DNA from: Promethearchaeum syntrophicum
GTDB lineage: Archaea; Asgardarchaeota; Lokiarchaeia; Sigyniarchaeales; Promethearchaeaceae
Length of the DNA: 32,000 nt
Assembly (NCBI RefSeq): GCF_008000775.2
Contig: NZ_CP042905.2
Location: 3,750,001-3,782,000, forward strand
Direction of reading: 5' to 3'
Shown: piece after piece, positions 29,451-32,000 of the stretch
Position numbering within the stretch: the stretch's first letter is position 1
How the letters are laid out: every line of letters starts with the position of its first letter
Notes under the pieces: generated by a model
What the model was told of the DNA's origin: nothing
Seen by the model: only the letters and a program-made list of their open reading frames with translations
Databases searched by the model: none
Made by a program: the position numbers and the translations under genes

Positions 29451-30002
29451 TTAACTTCCGTTTAATAATACCTCTAAATCTTTTGTATTCAATGGACCAT
29501 CACCGCAAAAATAACCACAGCCAGAATCTTGATATTTTTCAATTTCAAAACTTAAAGGAACGACGTATTTTCTTAAAGAATCAATAATATAATTAACATG
29601 GATATCAACGATTGCCTTATCCTTTCTTAAGCACGAATCAATAAATTTTTCAATTGTAGTAACATTTGGAGCAATAATTTCTATTAACATGTTGAATTTC
29701 CCTGTAATTTTGAAACAATTTACAATATATGGACATTTTCTAAATTTCGTCCAAAGTGCTTCAACATTTTTTACGGATAAATCTATTCGGGCCAATTTTA
29801 TATCCAATTTATTAAATTCTGCTCCAATCACTTCAGATAAAAGAAATTTTCGTTTCAATTTTATTATTCGTGCTCCCACTGCGGGTTGACTTTTATTAAC
29901 TTTTTCAGAAATTGCAGAATGGGTCATTTCGGGGTTTTTTTCTAATAATTCTATAATCTTTTTATCTGTATCATCAATTTCGAGTATCTCATTGTATTTC
30001 AT
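29451..30002 (-). CDS. Lrp/AsnC-family transcriptional regulator with C-terminal Cys-containing extension (paralog 1)
   Basis: 183 aa. The N-terminal wHTH is IDDTDKKIIELLEKNPEMTHSAISEKVNKSQPAVGARIIKLKRKFLL, followed by a RAM-like alpha/beta domain (CPYIVNCFKITGKFNMLIEI) and a tail ..QDSGCGYFCGDG. Confidence 0.8.
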   Translation of the reverse strand: MKYNEILEIDDTDKKIIELLEKNPEMTHSAISEKVNKSQPAVGARIIKLKRKFLLSEVIGAEFNKLDIKLARIDLSVKNVEALWTKFRKCPYIVNCFKITGKFNMLIEIIAPNVTTIEKFIDSCLRKDKAIVDIHVNYIIDSLRKYVVPLSFEIEKYQDSGCGYFCGDGPLNTKDLEVLLNGS

Positions 30003-30262: not shown

Positions 30263-30826
30263 TTAACTGATAGATTTTATTTTAATTTTTTTCGCATCAG
30301 CTTTTTCGCAATAGGGGCAAGATACAATTCCACATAATTCATCAGGACTATCAAAATTCTCTATTGTAAAATCAACCGGAAGTATAAATGGCTCAGCAAA
30401 ATCTGTGATTAAATCCATTTTAATTTTTTTAACGAATTCTTTATTTCTAAAATGCTTATCTAAAATAATATCTAATCTTTTAAGGGATGAACAAGCCATG
30501 AAAATCATCACATTATAATCCCCACTTAATTTTAGGGCATTAATTATGTATGGACAAGAATCAACCATGTCAAATACGAATTGAGGTTGTGTTATTGACA
30601 ATTCTATTTTGACTAAATTGAGCGAGGATGATACAAGATCTTTGGAAAAATCAACTCCAATCTGAGTAGCTAGAACCCCTTTTTCAGATAATTTTTTTAT
30701 TCGAGCTCCAATTGCTGGTTGAGATCTTTCCAAGTTTTTTGCTATTTGGCTATGGGTAATAGATGGATTCTTTTGAAGAGTTTCGATTATTCTTTTATCT
30801 ATATCATCAAGTTTTGTTAATTTCAT
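30263..30826 (-). CDS. Lrp/AsnC-family transcriptional regulator with C-terminal Cys-containing extension (paralog 2)
   Basis: 187 aa. It is colinear with paralog 1: LDDIDKRIIETLQKNPSITHSQIAKNLERSQPAIGARIKKLSEKGVL, then CPYIINALKLSGDYNVMIFM, with a tail ..ELCGIVSCPYCEK. Confidence 0.8.
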   Translation of the reverse strand: MKLTKLDDIDKRIIETLQKNPSITHSQIAKNLERSQPAIGARIKKLSEKGVLATQIGVDFSKDLVSSSLNLVKIELSITQPQFVFDMVDSCPYIINALKLSGDYNVMIFMACSSLKRLDIILDKHFRNKEFVKKIKMDLITDFAEPFILPVDFTIENFDSPDELCGIVSCPYCEKADAKKIKIKSIS

Positions 30827-30875: not shown

Positions 30876-31544
30876 CTATAATTTTTTATCTTGAATTTCT
30901 GATATTTCTTTGGATTTCTTCATTAGTAATTCGGTTAATCCTTGAAATGATTCTTCTACATTTTCTCCTGTTTTAGCAGAAAGTTCTGTATGATTAGTTA
31001 ATAAAAATTCATCCGCTTTTTGAGAAGCTTCTTCAAAACTAATTTGACGATGATCTACCAAATCTTTTTTACTACCGATTAGGAAAATTGGAATATTTCC
31101 GGCATTTTTTCTGATGATTTGGATCCAAACTGATAGACTTTCAAGGGTCTTATGAGAGGTTATATCGTATAGAAAGAATGCAGCATTGCTTCCTTTACTA
31201 TAAGTTGGTAAAAGAAATCTGAAGCGTTCTTCGCCTCCAAAATCCCATATTTGTATCTTAACTGATTTATTATTATCTAATCTAATCTTTTTTGAGAAGA
31301 AATCGACACCTATTGTTAATCTTGGTGAGTCTACAAACACGCCAGTAATATATCTATGTGTCAGTGAAGTTTTCCCAACACTTGCATCCCCTAGCATTAA
31401 TAATTTAAATGTAAAATCTGGTGACATTGTTCTCAAATTTTTGTTTATGTTATTAGATTGTAGAATTAATGTTAAATAATCATTGATCGTTATTAAAAAT
31501 TTTATAGCTTTTTTTGAAGATCGAGAGTGAGATTGCAATATCAT
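30876..31544 (-). CDS. Ras-superfamily small GTPase, Rab-like
   Basis: The track ORF is 222 aa; the probable true start is ATG 31427 (MSPDFTFKLLMLGDASVGKT, 183 aa). G1 is GDASVGKT. The switch I/RabF1-like motif is TIGVDF. G3 is WDFGGEERF, G4 is GSKKD, and G5 is LSAKTG. FLYDIT resembles RabF5. There is no C-terminal prenylation Cys. Confidence 0.88.
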   Translation of the reverse strand: MILQSHSRSSKKAIKFLITINDYLTLILQSNNINKNLRTMSPDFTFKLLMLGDASVGKTSLTHRYITGVFVDSPRLTIGVDFFSKKIRLDNNKSVKIQIWDFGGEERFRFLLPTYSKGSNAAFFLYDITSHKTLESLSVWIQIIRKNAGNIPIFLIGSKKDLVDHRQISFEEASQKADEFLLTNHTELSAKTGENVEESFQGLTELLMKKSKEISEIQDKKL

Positions 31545-31632
31545 CGTAAGAATAATTTCTACCTCAATGCAAAACTATAACAACTCTCGATCGCGTTTTA
31601 AAATGATTTTTCCCATATATTTGATTAGTATT

Positions 31633-32000
31633 TCAAAATAAATTGTCCAATTTTTCATGGCGTTTGGTTAAAAAAGTCCCAAAATATGATTTAAATGGCA
31701 AAGAAATTTCAATATTTCCGGAAATTTTATTTTTTTTCAGTGATGTATTCATTTTTCTTTCAAGAGATGACAAATGTTTTATCTTAAATTGGGATTCTAG
31801 TTGGTTAGTTATTAATTCAATTTCTGTATCTGGCAAATGCGCTCGTATATGTGCTTCTATTTGGGGTAATGGAATTGTACACTGAGGATTTATATGAGAA
31901 ATTGGAAACAAAATATTTGCGATTAAATTAATTCTCTTCTTTACATAATTAGAATCTACATTAGATAAAAATTCAAATCTCACAGGGACATCATAGGGAG
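31633..32000 (-). CDS. Hypothetical protein, 5'-partial (frame stays open to the right window edge)
   Basis: The track ORF 31633-31983 starts at a GTG, but the frame continues without a stop through nt 32000 (..PYDVPVRFEFLSN..). No motif was recognised. Confidence 0.45.
   Translation of the reverse strand, partial: PYDVPVRFEFLSNVDSNYVKKRINLIANILFPISHINPQCTIPLPQIEAHIRAHLPDTEIELITNQLESQFKIKHLSSLERKMNTSLKKNKISGNIEISLPFKSYFGTFLTKRHEKLDNLF

What the first reader, a model, noticed from the sequence alone, without database searches (positions are those of the whole stretch)
30876..31427. Rab-like small GTPase lacking the catalytic Gln and the NKxD Asn
The protein has Rab-family-type motifs: TIGVDF (RabF1 IGVDF) and FLYDIT (RabF5-like). 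Its G3 is WDFGGEERF where Ras/Rab proteins have WDTAGQE(R/E)F. The catalytic Gln (Ras Q61 equivalent) is therefore Glu, and the Thr-Ala is Phe-Gly. G4 is SKKD instead of NKxD. There is no C-terminal Cys for prenylation. Eukaryote-like small GTPases are a known Asgard signature, but this substitution pattern suggests altered intrinsic or GAP-assisted hydrolysis, and possibly altered nucleotide specificity.
Basis: partly seen in the sequence, partly recalled or inferred. Interest (0 to 1): 0.6.

Follow-up and report, generated by a model that had tools for sequence, protein, structure and literature searches.

The report
Lokiarchaeial Ras-like GTPase with catalytic Glu
This is an intact, strongly conserved Ras/Rab-like switch protein of a Lokiarchaeial archaeon. 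Its odd active-site residues (Glu for the catalytic Gln, Ser for the NKxD Asn) are the fixed signature of a whole gene family in that order, not a one-off defect.

Summary
Window 30876-31427 (minus strand) encodes a 183-aa Ras-family GTPase (Pfam Ras 1.6e-43). It aligns without gaps to human Rab43, with WDFGGEERF for WDTAGQERF and GSKKDL for GNKSDL, and it has no cysteine at all.

- **The pattern is a family trait.** All 120 best database homologues, and 80 genomic loci from one GTDB order (Lokiarchaeia: Promethearchaeum, Lokiarchaeum ossiferum, Harpocratesius), carry WD[FLV][GA]GE. Ser or a small residue fills the G4 position.
- **The gene is under strong constraint.** dN/dS is 0.03-0.04. Glu is invariant, and Ser is kept across both of its codon families.
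- **Glu is common in this genome.** Seven of about 31 Ras-like paralogues have Glu at this position.
- **Nucleotide binding looks intact.** All binding residues remain, including the guanine-specifying Asp. Altered base specificity or a dead pseudo-GTPase is therefore unlikely.
- **Glu can support hydrolysis.** Papers I read report raised intrinsic GTPase activity for Ras Q61E.

I found no paper describing this clade. First readers of this scan noted the same motif pair in four other genomes.

The gene cut by the window's end is NurA. In this order NurA is unlinked from HerA and lies next to this GTPase in 61 of 65 informative loci. Whether that link is functional is unproven.

The parts
30876..31427 (-). 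Coding sequence of the 183-aa Ras/Rab-like small GTPase (P0001).
   Evidence: Pfam Ras 1.6e-43. Rab43 is the best PDB sequence match. AF2 plus Foldseek give a Rab fold. dN/dS is 0.03-0.04 against congeners.
31368..31391 (-). G1 / P-loop GDASVGKT (residues 13-20), identical to the P-loop of human Rab43.
   Evidence: G13, G18, K19 and T20 are invariant in 48 orthologues.
31299..31316 (-). Switch I Thr38 followed by IGVDF (the RabF1-like TIGVDF, residues 38-43).
   Evidence: T38, G40, V41, D42 and F43 are invariant.
31221..31247 (-). G3 / switch II WDFGGEERF (residues 61-69). Glu66 (GAA, 31230-31232) sits at the Ras Gln61 position.
   Evidence: Gap-free alignment to Rab43 WDTAGQERF. W61, D62, F63, G65, E66 and R68 are invariant. 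The Glu codon is GAA in 71 and GAG in 9 of 80 loci.
31062..31073 (-). G4 SKKD (residues 119-122). Ser119 replaces the NKxD Asn.
   Evidence: K120 and D122 are invariant. The residue is Ser in 76 and Ala in 4 of 80 loci, and the Ser codons come from both the TCN and AGY families.
30972..30980 (-). G5 SAK (residues 150-152).
   Evidence: S150 is invariant and K152 at least 90% conserved.
31633..32000 (-). 3' end of the upstream, co-directional NurA nuclease gene. The full gene is 479 aa and runs 1072 nt beyond the window, at genome C1:3781633-3783072.
   Evidence: Pfam NurA 5.2e-11. The catalytic-type motifs VDG, DGS, KD[ST] and QIEAH are invariant. It lies next to the GTPase orthologue in 61 of 65 informative loci.
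31428..31632 (-). 205-nt AT-rich spacer between the NurA stop and the GTPase start. It is long enough for a separate promoter, and holds a TATAAAA-like box about 75 nt upstream of the ATG.
   Evidence: Read directly. Transcript structure could not be tested.
30263..30826 (-). Downstream Lrp/AsnC-type regulator (187 aa) with a Cys-rich tail. It starts 49 nt after the GTPase stop.
   Evidence: Pfam HTH_24 and AsnC_trans_reg. It is conserved downstream in the own genus, in Lokiarchaeum ossiferum and in one further MAG only.

Best explanation
The gene encodes a working guanine-nucleotide switch. It belongs to an orthologous group of Ras/Rab-like small GTPases found in one order of Lokiarchaeia.

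Shown:
- Every residue that holds GTP/GDP and Mg2+ is retained: the P-loop Lys and Thr, the switch I Thr, the DxxG Asp and Gly, the G4 Lys and Asp, and the G5 SAK.
- The protein folds like a Rab.
- The gene is under strong purifying selection.
- Glu at the Gln61 position and a small residue (Ser, Thr or Ala) at the Asn116 position are fixed features of the group.

Inferred:
- The Glu66 carboxylate takes over the job of the Gln carboxamide. It orients, and may deprotonate, the attacking water, as proposed for Ras Q61E. Hydrolysis therefore still occurs, but with different kinetics and a different dependence on a GAP.
- Replacing the Asn that ties G4 to the P-loop and G5 probably loosens nucleotide binding and speeds exchange, without changing base specificity.
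- The net picture is a switch or timer that depends less on Ras- or TBC-type GAPs and on GEFs.
- With no cysteine and no amphipathic terminus, it is probably soluble and is recruited through protein partners.
- Its conserved position beside NurA suggests, but does not show, a link to that nuclease.
For: Family membership and fold: Pfam Ras 1.6e-43. The best PDB sequence matches are Rab43 and Rab6, with the motifs aligned residue for residue. The AF2 model has pLDDT 81.7 and Foldseek E 1.8e-18 to Rab43.

Conservation: in 48 orthologues at 53-93% identity, K19, T20, T38, D62, G65, E66, K120, D122 and S150 are invariant. All 120 best homologues with a readable G3 have WD-F-[GA]-G-E.

Selection: dN/dS is 0.029-0.039 at dS of about 1. 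The Glu codon is GAA in 71 loci and GAG in 9. The Ser codons are TCN in 69 loci and AGY in 7.

Distribution: 27 of 27 sampled genomes of GTDB families f1 and f2 have an orthologue at E below 1e-58.

Phylogeny: the orthogroup and its nearest in-genome paralogue form a starred all-Glu clade.

Literature: Ras Q61E is reported to have raised intrinsic GTPase activity (PMC2987813, PMC10515638). Asp119 is the dominant guanine contact and Asn116 the weakest (PMC11594714).
Against: - There is no biochemistry on any member of this clade.
- Der et al. 1986, as reviewed in PMC6813200, found reduced hydrolysis for Ras Q61E, so the effect of Glu depends on context.
- I could not inspect the geometry of the model's active site, because no coordinates are returned.
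- Switch I (residues 29-37) is modelled with pLDDT below 50.
- The faster-exchange idea for Ser119 rests on my recollection of Ras Asn116 mutants. I did not check it in a paper.
- Close relatives with degenerate P-loops exist, so parts of this wider clade do drift towards pseudo-GTPases.
Confidence: 0.6

Rival explanations
1. Slow or hydrolysis-poor switch that needs a catalytic residue supplied in trans. Glu66 would not be catalytic. A dedicated, still unknown GAP would insert the water-positioning residue, as RapGAP's Asn does for Rap (which has Thr61), or as proposed for bacterial group 1 Rup GTPases.
For: Prokaryotic Ras-like GTPases without the G3 Gln exist and have been explained this way (PMC4316618, which also cites Scrima 2008 for Rap-RapGAP). 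Der et al. 1986 reported lower hydrolysis for Ras Q61E (PMC6813200). The invariant, clade-specific switch II sequence EERFRFLLP would fit co-evolution with a dedicated partner. The genome has 12 roadblock/LC7 (MglB-like) genes that could supply GAPs.
Against: No roadblock, longin or other GAP-like gene is conserved next to the GTPase. A strictly invariant acidic residue fits a chemical role better than a mere placeholder. Two papers report raised intrinsic activity for Ras Q61E (PMC2987813, PMC10515638).
Confidence: 0.25
2. Switch that regulates the neighbouring NurA nuclease. In this order NurA lost its genomic link to the HerA ATPase, and the GTPase gates NurA's activity or localisation in DNA-end processing.
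For: NurA lies within 3 kb upstream in 61 of 65 loci with enough flank. It does so in two different arrangements, co-directional in family f1 and divergent in f2, with different outer flanks. NurA identity between the two arrangements is only 27-29%. In other Asgard families the same NurA orthologue is directly followed by HerA and has no GTPase nearby: 28 of 30 loci from families f7, f15 and f21 had no GTPase within 1.5 kb, two of those loci were checked by Pfam for HerA, and representatives of families f5, f6, f8, f9, f12, f13, f16, f18, f19 and f22 show NurA next to HerA. The own genome's HerA orthologue stands alone at C1:1053271.
Against: The link is confined to one order and amounts to about one rearrangement event, so inherited synteny could explain it. 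Spacers are 160-670 nt, and in family f2 the genes are on opposite strands, so they are not one operon. No known small GTPase regulates NurA. A sub-branch with EERYR lacks NurA nearby (loci L092, L124, L129). PADLOC gives no defence-system match.
Confidence: 0.2
3. Pseudo-GTPase: a nucleotide-independent scaffold that has lost catalysis and perhaps binding.
For: The canonical Gln and Asn are missing. Relatives from the representative search have broken P-loops (for example GDADTPKT, GDASVDKT) and broken G4 motifs, and some are fused to other domains.
Against: The query and all 48 aligned orthologues keep the P-loop Lys and Thr, the switch I Thr, DxxG, the G4 Lys and Asp, and SAK. dN/dS is 0.03-0.04. 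The degenerate forms are separate, longer proteins.
Confidence: 0.05
4. Switch with changed base specificity (ATP or XTP instead of GTP), caused by the loss of the NKxD Asn.
For: Only the departure from the textbook NKxD motif.
Against: Asp122, the residue that reads guanine N1 and N2, is invariant, as are Lys120 and SAK. In Ras the Asn116-N7 bond is the weakest base contact (PMC11594714). [NT]KxD is already the accepted consensus (PMC4316618). From my own knowledge, Rac and Cdc42 carry TKxD and TQxD and are GTP-specific.
Confidence: 0.04

Closest known systems
Eukaryotic Rab GTPases (best matches human Rab43 and Rab6; PDB 9LTQ, 2HUP, 2E9S)
   Same: Same fold, 42-45% identity over about 170 residues, and a P-loop (GDASVGKT) identical to that of Rab43. 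RabF1 (IGVDF), RabF2 (KIQIW) and RabF5 (FLYDIT) are recognisable.
   Different: Glu replaces the catalytic Gln, Phe-Gly replaces Thr-Ala in G3, and Ser replaces Asn in G4. RabF3 and RabF4 match only partly (RFRFLL, YSKGS). There is no C-terminal Cys, in fact no Cys at all. No RabGAP-TBC match was found in the genome, but the control genomes do not ring for that family either, so this is not evidence of absence. The literature reports no Asgard sequence sister to Rabs (10.1101/2024.02.28.582541).
Asgard 'RasL' / Rab-like GTPases, e.g. Thor-Rab (PDB 7EZB; Tran et al. 2024, PMC10933270)
   Same: Single-domain Asgard small GTPase with Rab-like motifs and no prenylation tail. E is 1.9e-32 to 7EZB. 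The 74 GTPases of the MK-D1 genome catalogued in that paper include Rab-like single-domain forms of this kind.
   Different: Thor-Rab has the Gln (Gln67) and is a different paralogue. It does not appear among the 60 best matches shown, all at E 3.8e-35 or better, for a member of this clade carrying an NCBI Thorarchaeota label. The Glu/Ser variant is not mentioned in the main text or in the supplement text I searched.
H-Ras Q61E mutant
   Same: Glu at the same switch II position in a Ras-fold GTPase. It is reported to raise intrinsic GTP hydrolysis, and this is used as support for a general-base mechanism (PMC2987813, PMC10515638).
   Different: It is an engineered or oncogenic single mutant in a Gly12/Gly13 background, and an earlier study found reduced hydrolysis (PMC6813200). 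Here Glu is the natural, invariant state, and it is accompanied by Phe-Gly in G3 and Ala-Ser at the Gly12/Gly13 positions.
Bacterial group 1 Rup GTPases and Rap (Thr61)
   Same: Natural Ras-like GTPases without the G3 Gln. They are thought (Rup) or shown (Rap) to receive the catalytic residue from a partner (PMC4316618).
   Different: They belong to different lineages. The paper text I read does not say which residue replaces Gln in Rup. No conserved signalling neighbours like those of Rup are present here.
Rho-family G4 variants (Rac TKxD, Cdc42 TQxD) and the [NT]KxD consensus
   Same: A small hydroxyl residue in place of the G4 Asn, with guanine specificity retained. The consensus comes from PMC4316618. 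The Rac and Cdc42 motifs come from my own knowledge.
   Different: Ser rather than Thr is the rule here: 76 of 80 loci.

Membership tests
Ras superfamily small GTPase (Pfam PF00071) | Profile match above the curated cut-off, and a Ras-like alpha/beta fold | tested here: met
   148.6 bits against a cut-off of 21.6. AF2 pLDDT 81.7. Foldseek probability 1.00 to many Rabs.
Ras superfamily small GTPase (Pfam PF00071) | G1 GxxxxGK[ST], G2 Thr, G3 DxxG, G5 SA[KL] | tested here: met
   GDASVGKT, Thr38, DFGG and SAK are all present. They are invariant or nearly so in the orthologues.
Ras superfamily small GTPase (Pfam PF00071) | Catalytic Gln directly after DxxG (DxxGQ) | tested here: not met
   Glu66 aligns to the Gln of Rab43. 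Glu is invariant in the clade.
Ras superfamily small GTPase (Pfam PF00071) | G4 [NT]KxD | tested here: inconclusive
   The motif is SKKD. Lys and Asp are met, but the first residue is Ser rather than Asn or Thr. The clade has Ser in 76 and Ala in 4 of 80 loci, and Thr or Asn in a few homologues.
Eukaryotic Rab family | Five RabF motifs (IGVDF, KLQIW, RFrsiT, YYRGA, LVYDIT) | tested here: inconclusive
   F1 IGVDF, F2 KIQIW and F5 FLYDIT are close. F3 RFRFLL and F4 YSKGS match only in part. I read these, taking the motif definitions as used in PMC4915359 and PMC10933270.
Eukaryotic Rab family | C-terminal Cys motif for geranylgeranylation | tested here: not met
   There is no Cys in the protein. 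The tails of 120 homologues are variable, and only one ends in Cys.
Eukaryotic Rab family | Phylogenetic placement inside, or sister to, eukaryotic Rabs | not tested
   No named eukaryotic sequences could be brought into a tree here. A preprint reports no Asgard sequence sister to Rabs (10.1101/2024.02.28.582541).
Pseudo-GTPase | Loss of residues needed for nucleotide or Mg binding | tested here: not met
   All binding residues are retained and invariant. dN/dS is 0.03-0.04.
MglA family | G3 TVPGQ or GTPGQ, and a partner MglB/roadblock gene | tested here: not met
   G3 is WDFGGE. No roadblock gene lies in the neighbourhood. Motif definitions come from PMC4316618.
Roc domain of Roco proteins (PF08477) | Roc domain followed by a COR domain in a multidomain protein | tested here: not met
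   The Roc profile matches at 8.3e-30, below the Ras match. The protein is a single 183-aa domain.

The most novel reading that the evidence does not exclude
In one order of Lokiarchaeia, the DNA-end-resection nuclease NurA has been uncoupled from its usual HerA ATPase partner and placed under the control of a dedicated Ras-like GTPase. That GTPase's Glu-for-Gln, Ser-for-Asn active site would make it a self-cycling timer independent of GAPs and GEFs. This would be a prokaryotic small-GTPase switch acting on DNA metabolism rather than on membranes or motility.
Probability: 0.12. Interest if true: 0.75.

Novelty: new variant of a known kind. Interest (0 to 1): 0.4.

Why it matters
Asgard small GTPases are central to arguments about how eukaryotic membrane traffic and signalling arose, yet almost none has been tested biochemically.

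This work defines a cleanly delimited, order-wide orthogroup in which the textbook catalytic Gln is invariably Glu. It also shows that about a fifth of one Lokiarchaeon's Ras-like paralogues share that state. That gives experimenters a natural test case for two questions. Can a carboxylate replace the Gln in a Ras-fold enzyme? Do Asgard switches need GAPs at all?

It also warns against reading each such gene as an individual oddity. First readers flagged the same motif pair independently in at least four other genomes of this scan.

The NurA linkage is a modest but testable lead.

Tried and rejected
I did the synteny work with the genome search, the fetch from genomes and the search for related loci instead.
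- **RNA evidence.** The one RNA-seq run holding the locus (X1) is stored as contigs. A single contig of more than 33 kb covers the whole stretch, so it says nothing about expression level or transcript units.
- **Intrinsic arginine finger.** Arg36 sits two residues before the switch I Thr, but Lys or Arg at that position is common in this genome's paralogues whether they carry Gln or Glu. I dropped the idea.
- **CAAX processing by the Rce1-like (CPBP) protease that precedes the GTPase in family f2.** The f2 GTPases have no C-terminal Cys, so eukaryote-style prenyl-CAAX processing is rejected. The own genome's nearest CPBP gene, 6.5 kb away, is not orthologous.
- **Defence-system reading of NurA plus GTPase.** PADLOC gives no match.
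- **RabGAP-TBC search of the genome.** It found nothing, but the control genomes contain no positive either, so this is not evidence of absence.
- **A solved structure of a clade member.** None exists. Thor-Rab 7EZB is a Gln-bearing paralogue.
- **NCBI labels.** Some homologues are labelled Heimdall-, Hod-, Hermod-, Odin- or Thorarchaeota. The labelled records I could match to the genome search handles lie in GTDB family f2, which is in the same order as the window's genome. One example is JBHLLP010000003 = G049:C3. I therefore do not claim a pan-Asgard distribution.
- **G119:C35 (family f22).** This contig looks mis-binned, because its GTPase is identical to that of G008.
- **Literature.** The searches found no paper describing the Glu-type clade.

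Full report
**What is there**

Window 30876-31427 (minus strand) is an open frame of 183 codons. An in-frame ATG at 31544 would add 39 residues.

The product matches Pfam Ras at 1.6e-43. Its best matches among solved structures are human Rab43 and Rab6, at E 3.5e-38 to 4.5e-37. In that gap-free alignment WDTAGQERF of Rab43 lies over WDFGGEERF, and GNKSDL lies over GSKKDL. Glu66 therefore occupies the Ras Gln61 position, and Ser119 the Asn116 position.

I checked both against the nucleotides. GAA is at 31230-31232, and AGT-AAA-AAA-GAT is at 31062-31073. The protein has no cysteine.

An AlphaFold2 model built on 48 sequences has mean pLDDT 81.7, with only switch I poorly defined. Foldseek places it among Rab43, Rab6, Rab1 and Rab8 at E about 1e-18.

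**Organism**

The window lies in a single-contig genome of 4.32 Mb with 31% G+C. The nearest public orthologues are MAGs labelled Promethearchaeum sp. (94-95% identity). Candidatus Lokiarchaeum ossiferum follows at 77%, and Candidatus Harpocratesius repetitus at 70%. The genome is Lokiarchaeial.

**The substitutions are a family signature**

- A search of 5.8 billion proteins gave 2146 hits. Of the best 120, which reach down to 55% identity, every one with a readable G3 has WD-F-[GA]-G-E. Nearly all have [ST]KxD.
- In an alignment of 48 orthologues at 53-93% identity, the invariant residues include K19, T20, T38, D62, F63, G65, E66, K120, D122 and S150.
- Across the 80 genomic loci:

| Feature | Count |
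|---|---|
| Glu codon GAA | 71 |
| Glu codon GAG | 9 |
| G4 residue Ser | 76 |
| G4 residue Ala | 4 |
| Ser codons, TCN family | 69 |
| Ser codons, AGY family | 7 |

- Ser is thus held across both of its codon families.
- Against three congeneric orthologues, dN/dS is 0.029-0.039 at dS of about 1.
- In a sample of 151 genomes of the phylum, orthologues at E below 1e-58 occur in all 27 genomes of two GTDB families of one order, f1 and f2. They occur in no other family except on one contig that looks mis-binned.

I found no description of it in Tran et al. 2024 (main text or the supplement text I searched), in Surkont and Pereira-Leal 2016, in Wuichet and Sogaard-Andersen 2015, in the Asgard Arf preprint, or through three literature searches.

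**Glu is common in this genome's Ras-like proteins**

phmmer finds 39 paralogues in the genome. Of the 31 with E below 1e-15, seven carry Glu after DxxG.

On a maximum-likelihood tree the orthogroup and its nearest in-genome paralogue (C1:2040510) form a starred, all-Glu clade. The other Glu-bearing paralogues are scattered, and starred branches force at least two changes of state.

Among the best 150 of 62,676 representative hits, Glu goes with a non-Asn G4 in 16 of 19 domains. Gln does so in 9 of 55. This count is not corrected for relatedness. Some relatives have broken P-loops and extra domains, so the wider clade also spawns pseudo-GTPases. The query is not one of them.

**What the substitutions probably do**

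All nucleotide- and Mg-binding residues are intact, which makes a dead protein unlikely.

Base specificity in Ras rests mainly on Asp119, which reads guanine N1 and N2, together with Lys117 and the G5 backbone. The Asn116-N7 bond is the weakest contact (PMC11594714). [NT]KxD is already the accepted consensus (PMC4316618). A switch to ATP or XTP is therefore improbable.

For the Gln position, two papers cite Ras Q61E as having raised intrinsic GTPase activity and use it to support a general-base mechanism (PMC2987813, PMC10515638). A review of Der et al. 1986 reports reduced activity (PMC6813200).

My best reading, at confidence 0.6, is a functional switch in which Glu66 positions or activates the attacking water, with altered kinetics and altered dependence on a GAP.

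The main rival, at 0.25, is a slow GTPase completed in trans by an unknown GAP. This has been proposed for bacterial group 1 Rup proteins and shown for Rap (PMC4316618).

The idea that Ser119 speeds nucleotide exchange rests on my memory of Ras Asn116 mutants and is marked as such.

**Surroundings**

The ORF cut by the window's end (31633-32000) is the tail of a 479-aa NurA-domain protein. The NurA-type motifs VDG, DGS, KD[ST] and QIEAH are invariant in it.

It is the orthologue of a nearly universal, single-copy Asgard NurA, found in 125 of 151 genomes. In representatives of GTDB families f5, f6, f8, f9, f12, f13, f16, f18, f19 and f22, that NurA lies next to HerA with no GTPase nearby. The same holds for the two loci of families f7 and f15 that I checked by Pfam. 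None of 30 NurA loci from families f7, f15 and f21 has a related GTPase within 1.5 kb.

In families f1 and f2, NurA is unlinked from HerA. In the own genome, the HerA orthologue stands alone at C1:1053271, and a second, shorter NurA with its own HerA-like gene sits at C1:2767362.

In those two families NurA instead lies beside this GTPase. Of 65 loci with at least 2.6 kb of upstream sequence, 61 have NurA within 3 kb. There are two arrangements:

- **Family f1:** NurA and the GTPase are co-directional, 200-670 nt apart, and often followed by an Lrp/AsnC regulator.
- **Family f2:** NurA is divergent from a 217-aa CPBP/Rce1-like intramembrane protease that precedes the GTPase. A KsgA-DUF655-RpoF-L21e-Pus10 block lies beyond NurA.

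The adjacency has survived an inversion and a change of flanks, while NurA diverged to 27-29% identity. That is suggestive. However, it is confined to one order, the spacers are long, and a sub-branch with EERYR lacks NurA nearby. I put a functional link at about 0.2.

The CPBP neighbour cannot be a CAAX protease for this GTPase, because the f2 proteins have no C-terminal Cys.

**What failed**

- The only RNA run is stored as long contigs and shows nothing about transcripts.
- PADLOC has no match.
- The RabGAP-TBC search is uninformative.
- A possible intrinsic arginine finger at Arg36 is not specific to Glu-type proteins.

**Verdict**

The gene is an ordinary, annotated 'Rab family GTPase' by family. 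It represents a conserved, undescribed active-site variant (Glu for Gln, Ser for Asn) that defines an order-wide Lokiarchaeial orthogroup.

First readers of this scan flagged the same motif pair in four other genomes, which fits a family trait.

I rate it a new variant of a known kind, with interest 0.4. It is worth a biochemical test, but it is not a categorical surprise.

Noticed in passing
window 31633-32000, continuing to genome C1:3783072 (L031:1633-3072, minus strand): The pan-Asgard NurA orthologue is separated from HerA in GTDB families f1 and f2 (Lokiarchaeia). In 13 other Asgard families it is adjacent to HerA. The own genome also has a second, shorter NurA (336 aa) directly followed by a HerA/DUF87 gene at C1:2767362, and a lone HerA orthologue at C1:1053271-1054818.
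   Followed up: partly
L064:8676-9329 (minus strand) and the equivalent gene in 51 of 65 family-f2 loci: A 217-aa CPBP/Rce1-like intramembrane protease (PF02517, 1.4e-18) sits directly upstream of the Glu-type GTPase, co-directional with it and divergent from NurA across about 90 nt. The GTPases have no CAAX Cys. Many f2 tails share an (I/L)LFE(K/N/R)Y-like ending.
   Followed up: partly
proteins P0123, P0135, P0146, P0150, P0153, P0159: Close relatives of the Glu-type clade have degenerate P-loops (GDADTPKT, GDASVDKT, GDAALKAS) and degenerate G4 motifs (AKAHL, TKLEL). They are fused to C-terminal domains, and one of these looks roadblock-like to my eye. They appear to be pseudo-GTPase offshoots.
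   Followed up: no
representative hits P0122-P0271 and the own-genome paralogues: Glu at the Gln61 position co-occurs with a non-Asn G4 residue far more often than Gln does: 16 of 19 domains against 9 of 55. The count is not corrected for shared ancestry. It may reflect coupled tuning of hydrolysis and nucleotide affinity.
   Followed up: partly
window 29451-30002 and 30263-30826 (minus strand): Two tandem Lrp/AsnC regulators with Cys-rich C-terminal tails follow the GTPase. The first starts 49 nt after the GTPase stop. It is conserved downstream in the own genus, in Lokiarchaeum ossiferum and in one further MAG only (L090).
   Followed up: partly
L031:8079-9119 (plus strand), genome C1:3788079-3789119: A 346-aa protein with an N-terminal zinc-ribbon-like CxxC pair and a C-terminal CPBP/Rce1-like protease domain (PF02517, 3.1e-16) lies 6.5 kb from the GTPase. 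It is not orthologous to the f2 neighbour.
   Followed up: no
G119:C35 (L072): This contig of a family-f22 genome carries a GTPase identical to that of G008 (family f2) and has f2-type synteny. Three other f22 genomes have the NurA-HerA arrangement. The contig is probably mis-binned.
   Followed up: partly
NurA family alignment A2, C-terminus: All NurA orthologues end in a short, conserved basic tail: KRHxR(L/M)DxLF in family f1, KRRxRRPF in f2, and RRRSRNPFGG in the proteins with NCBI Thorarchaeota labels. It may be a docking peptide.
   Followed up: no
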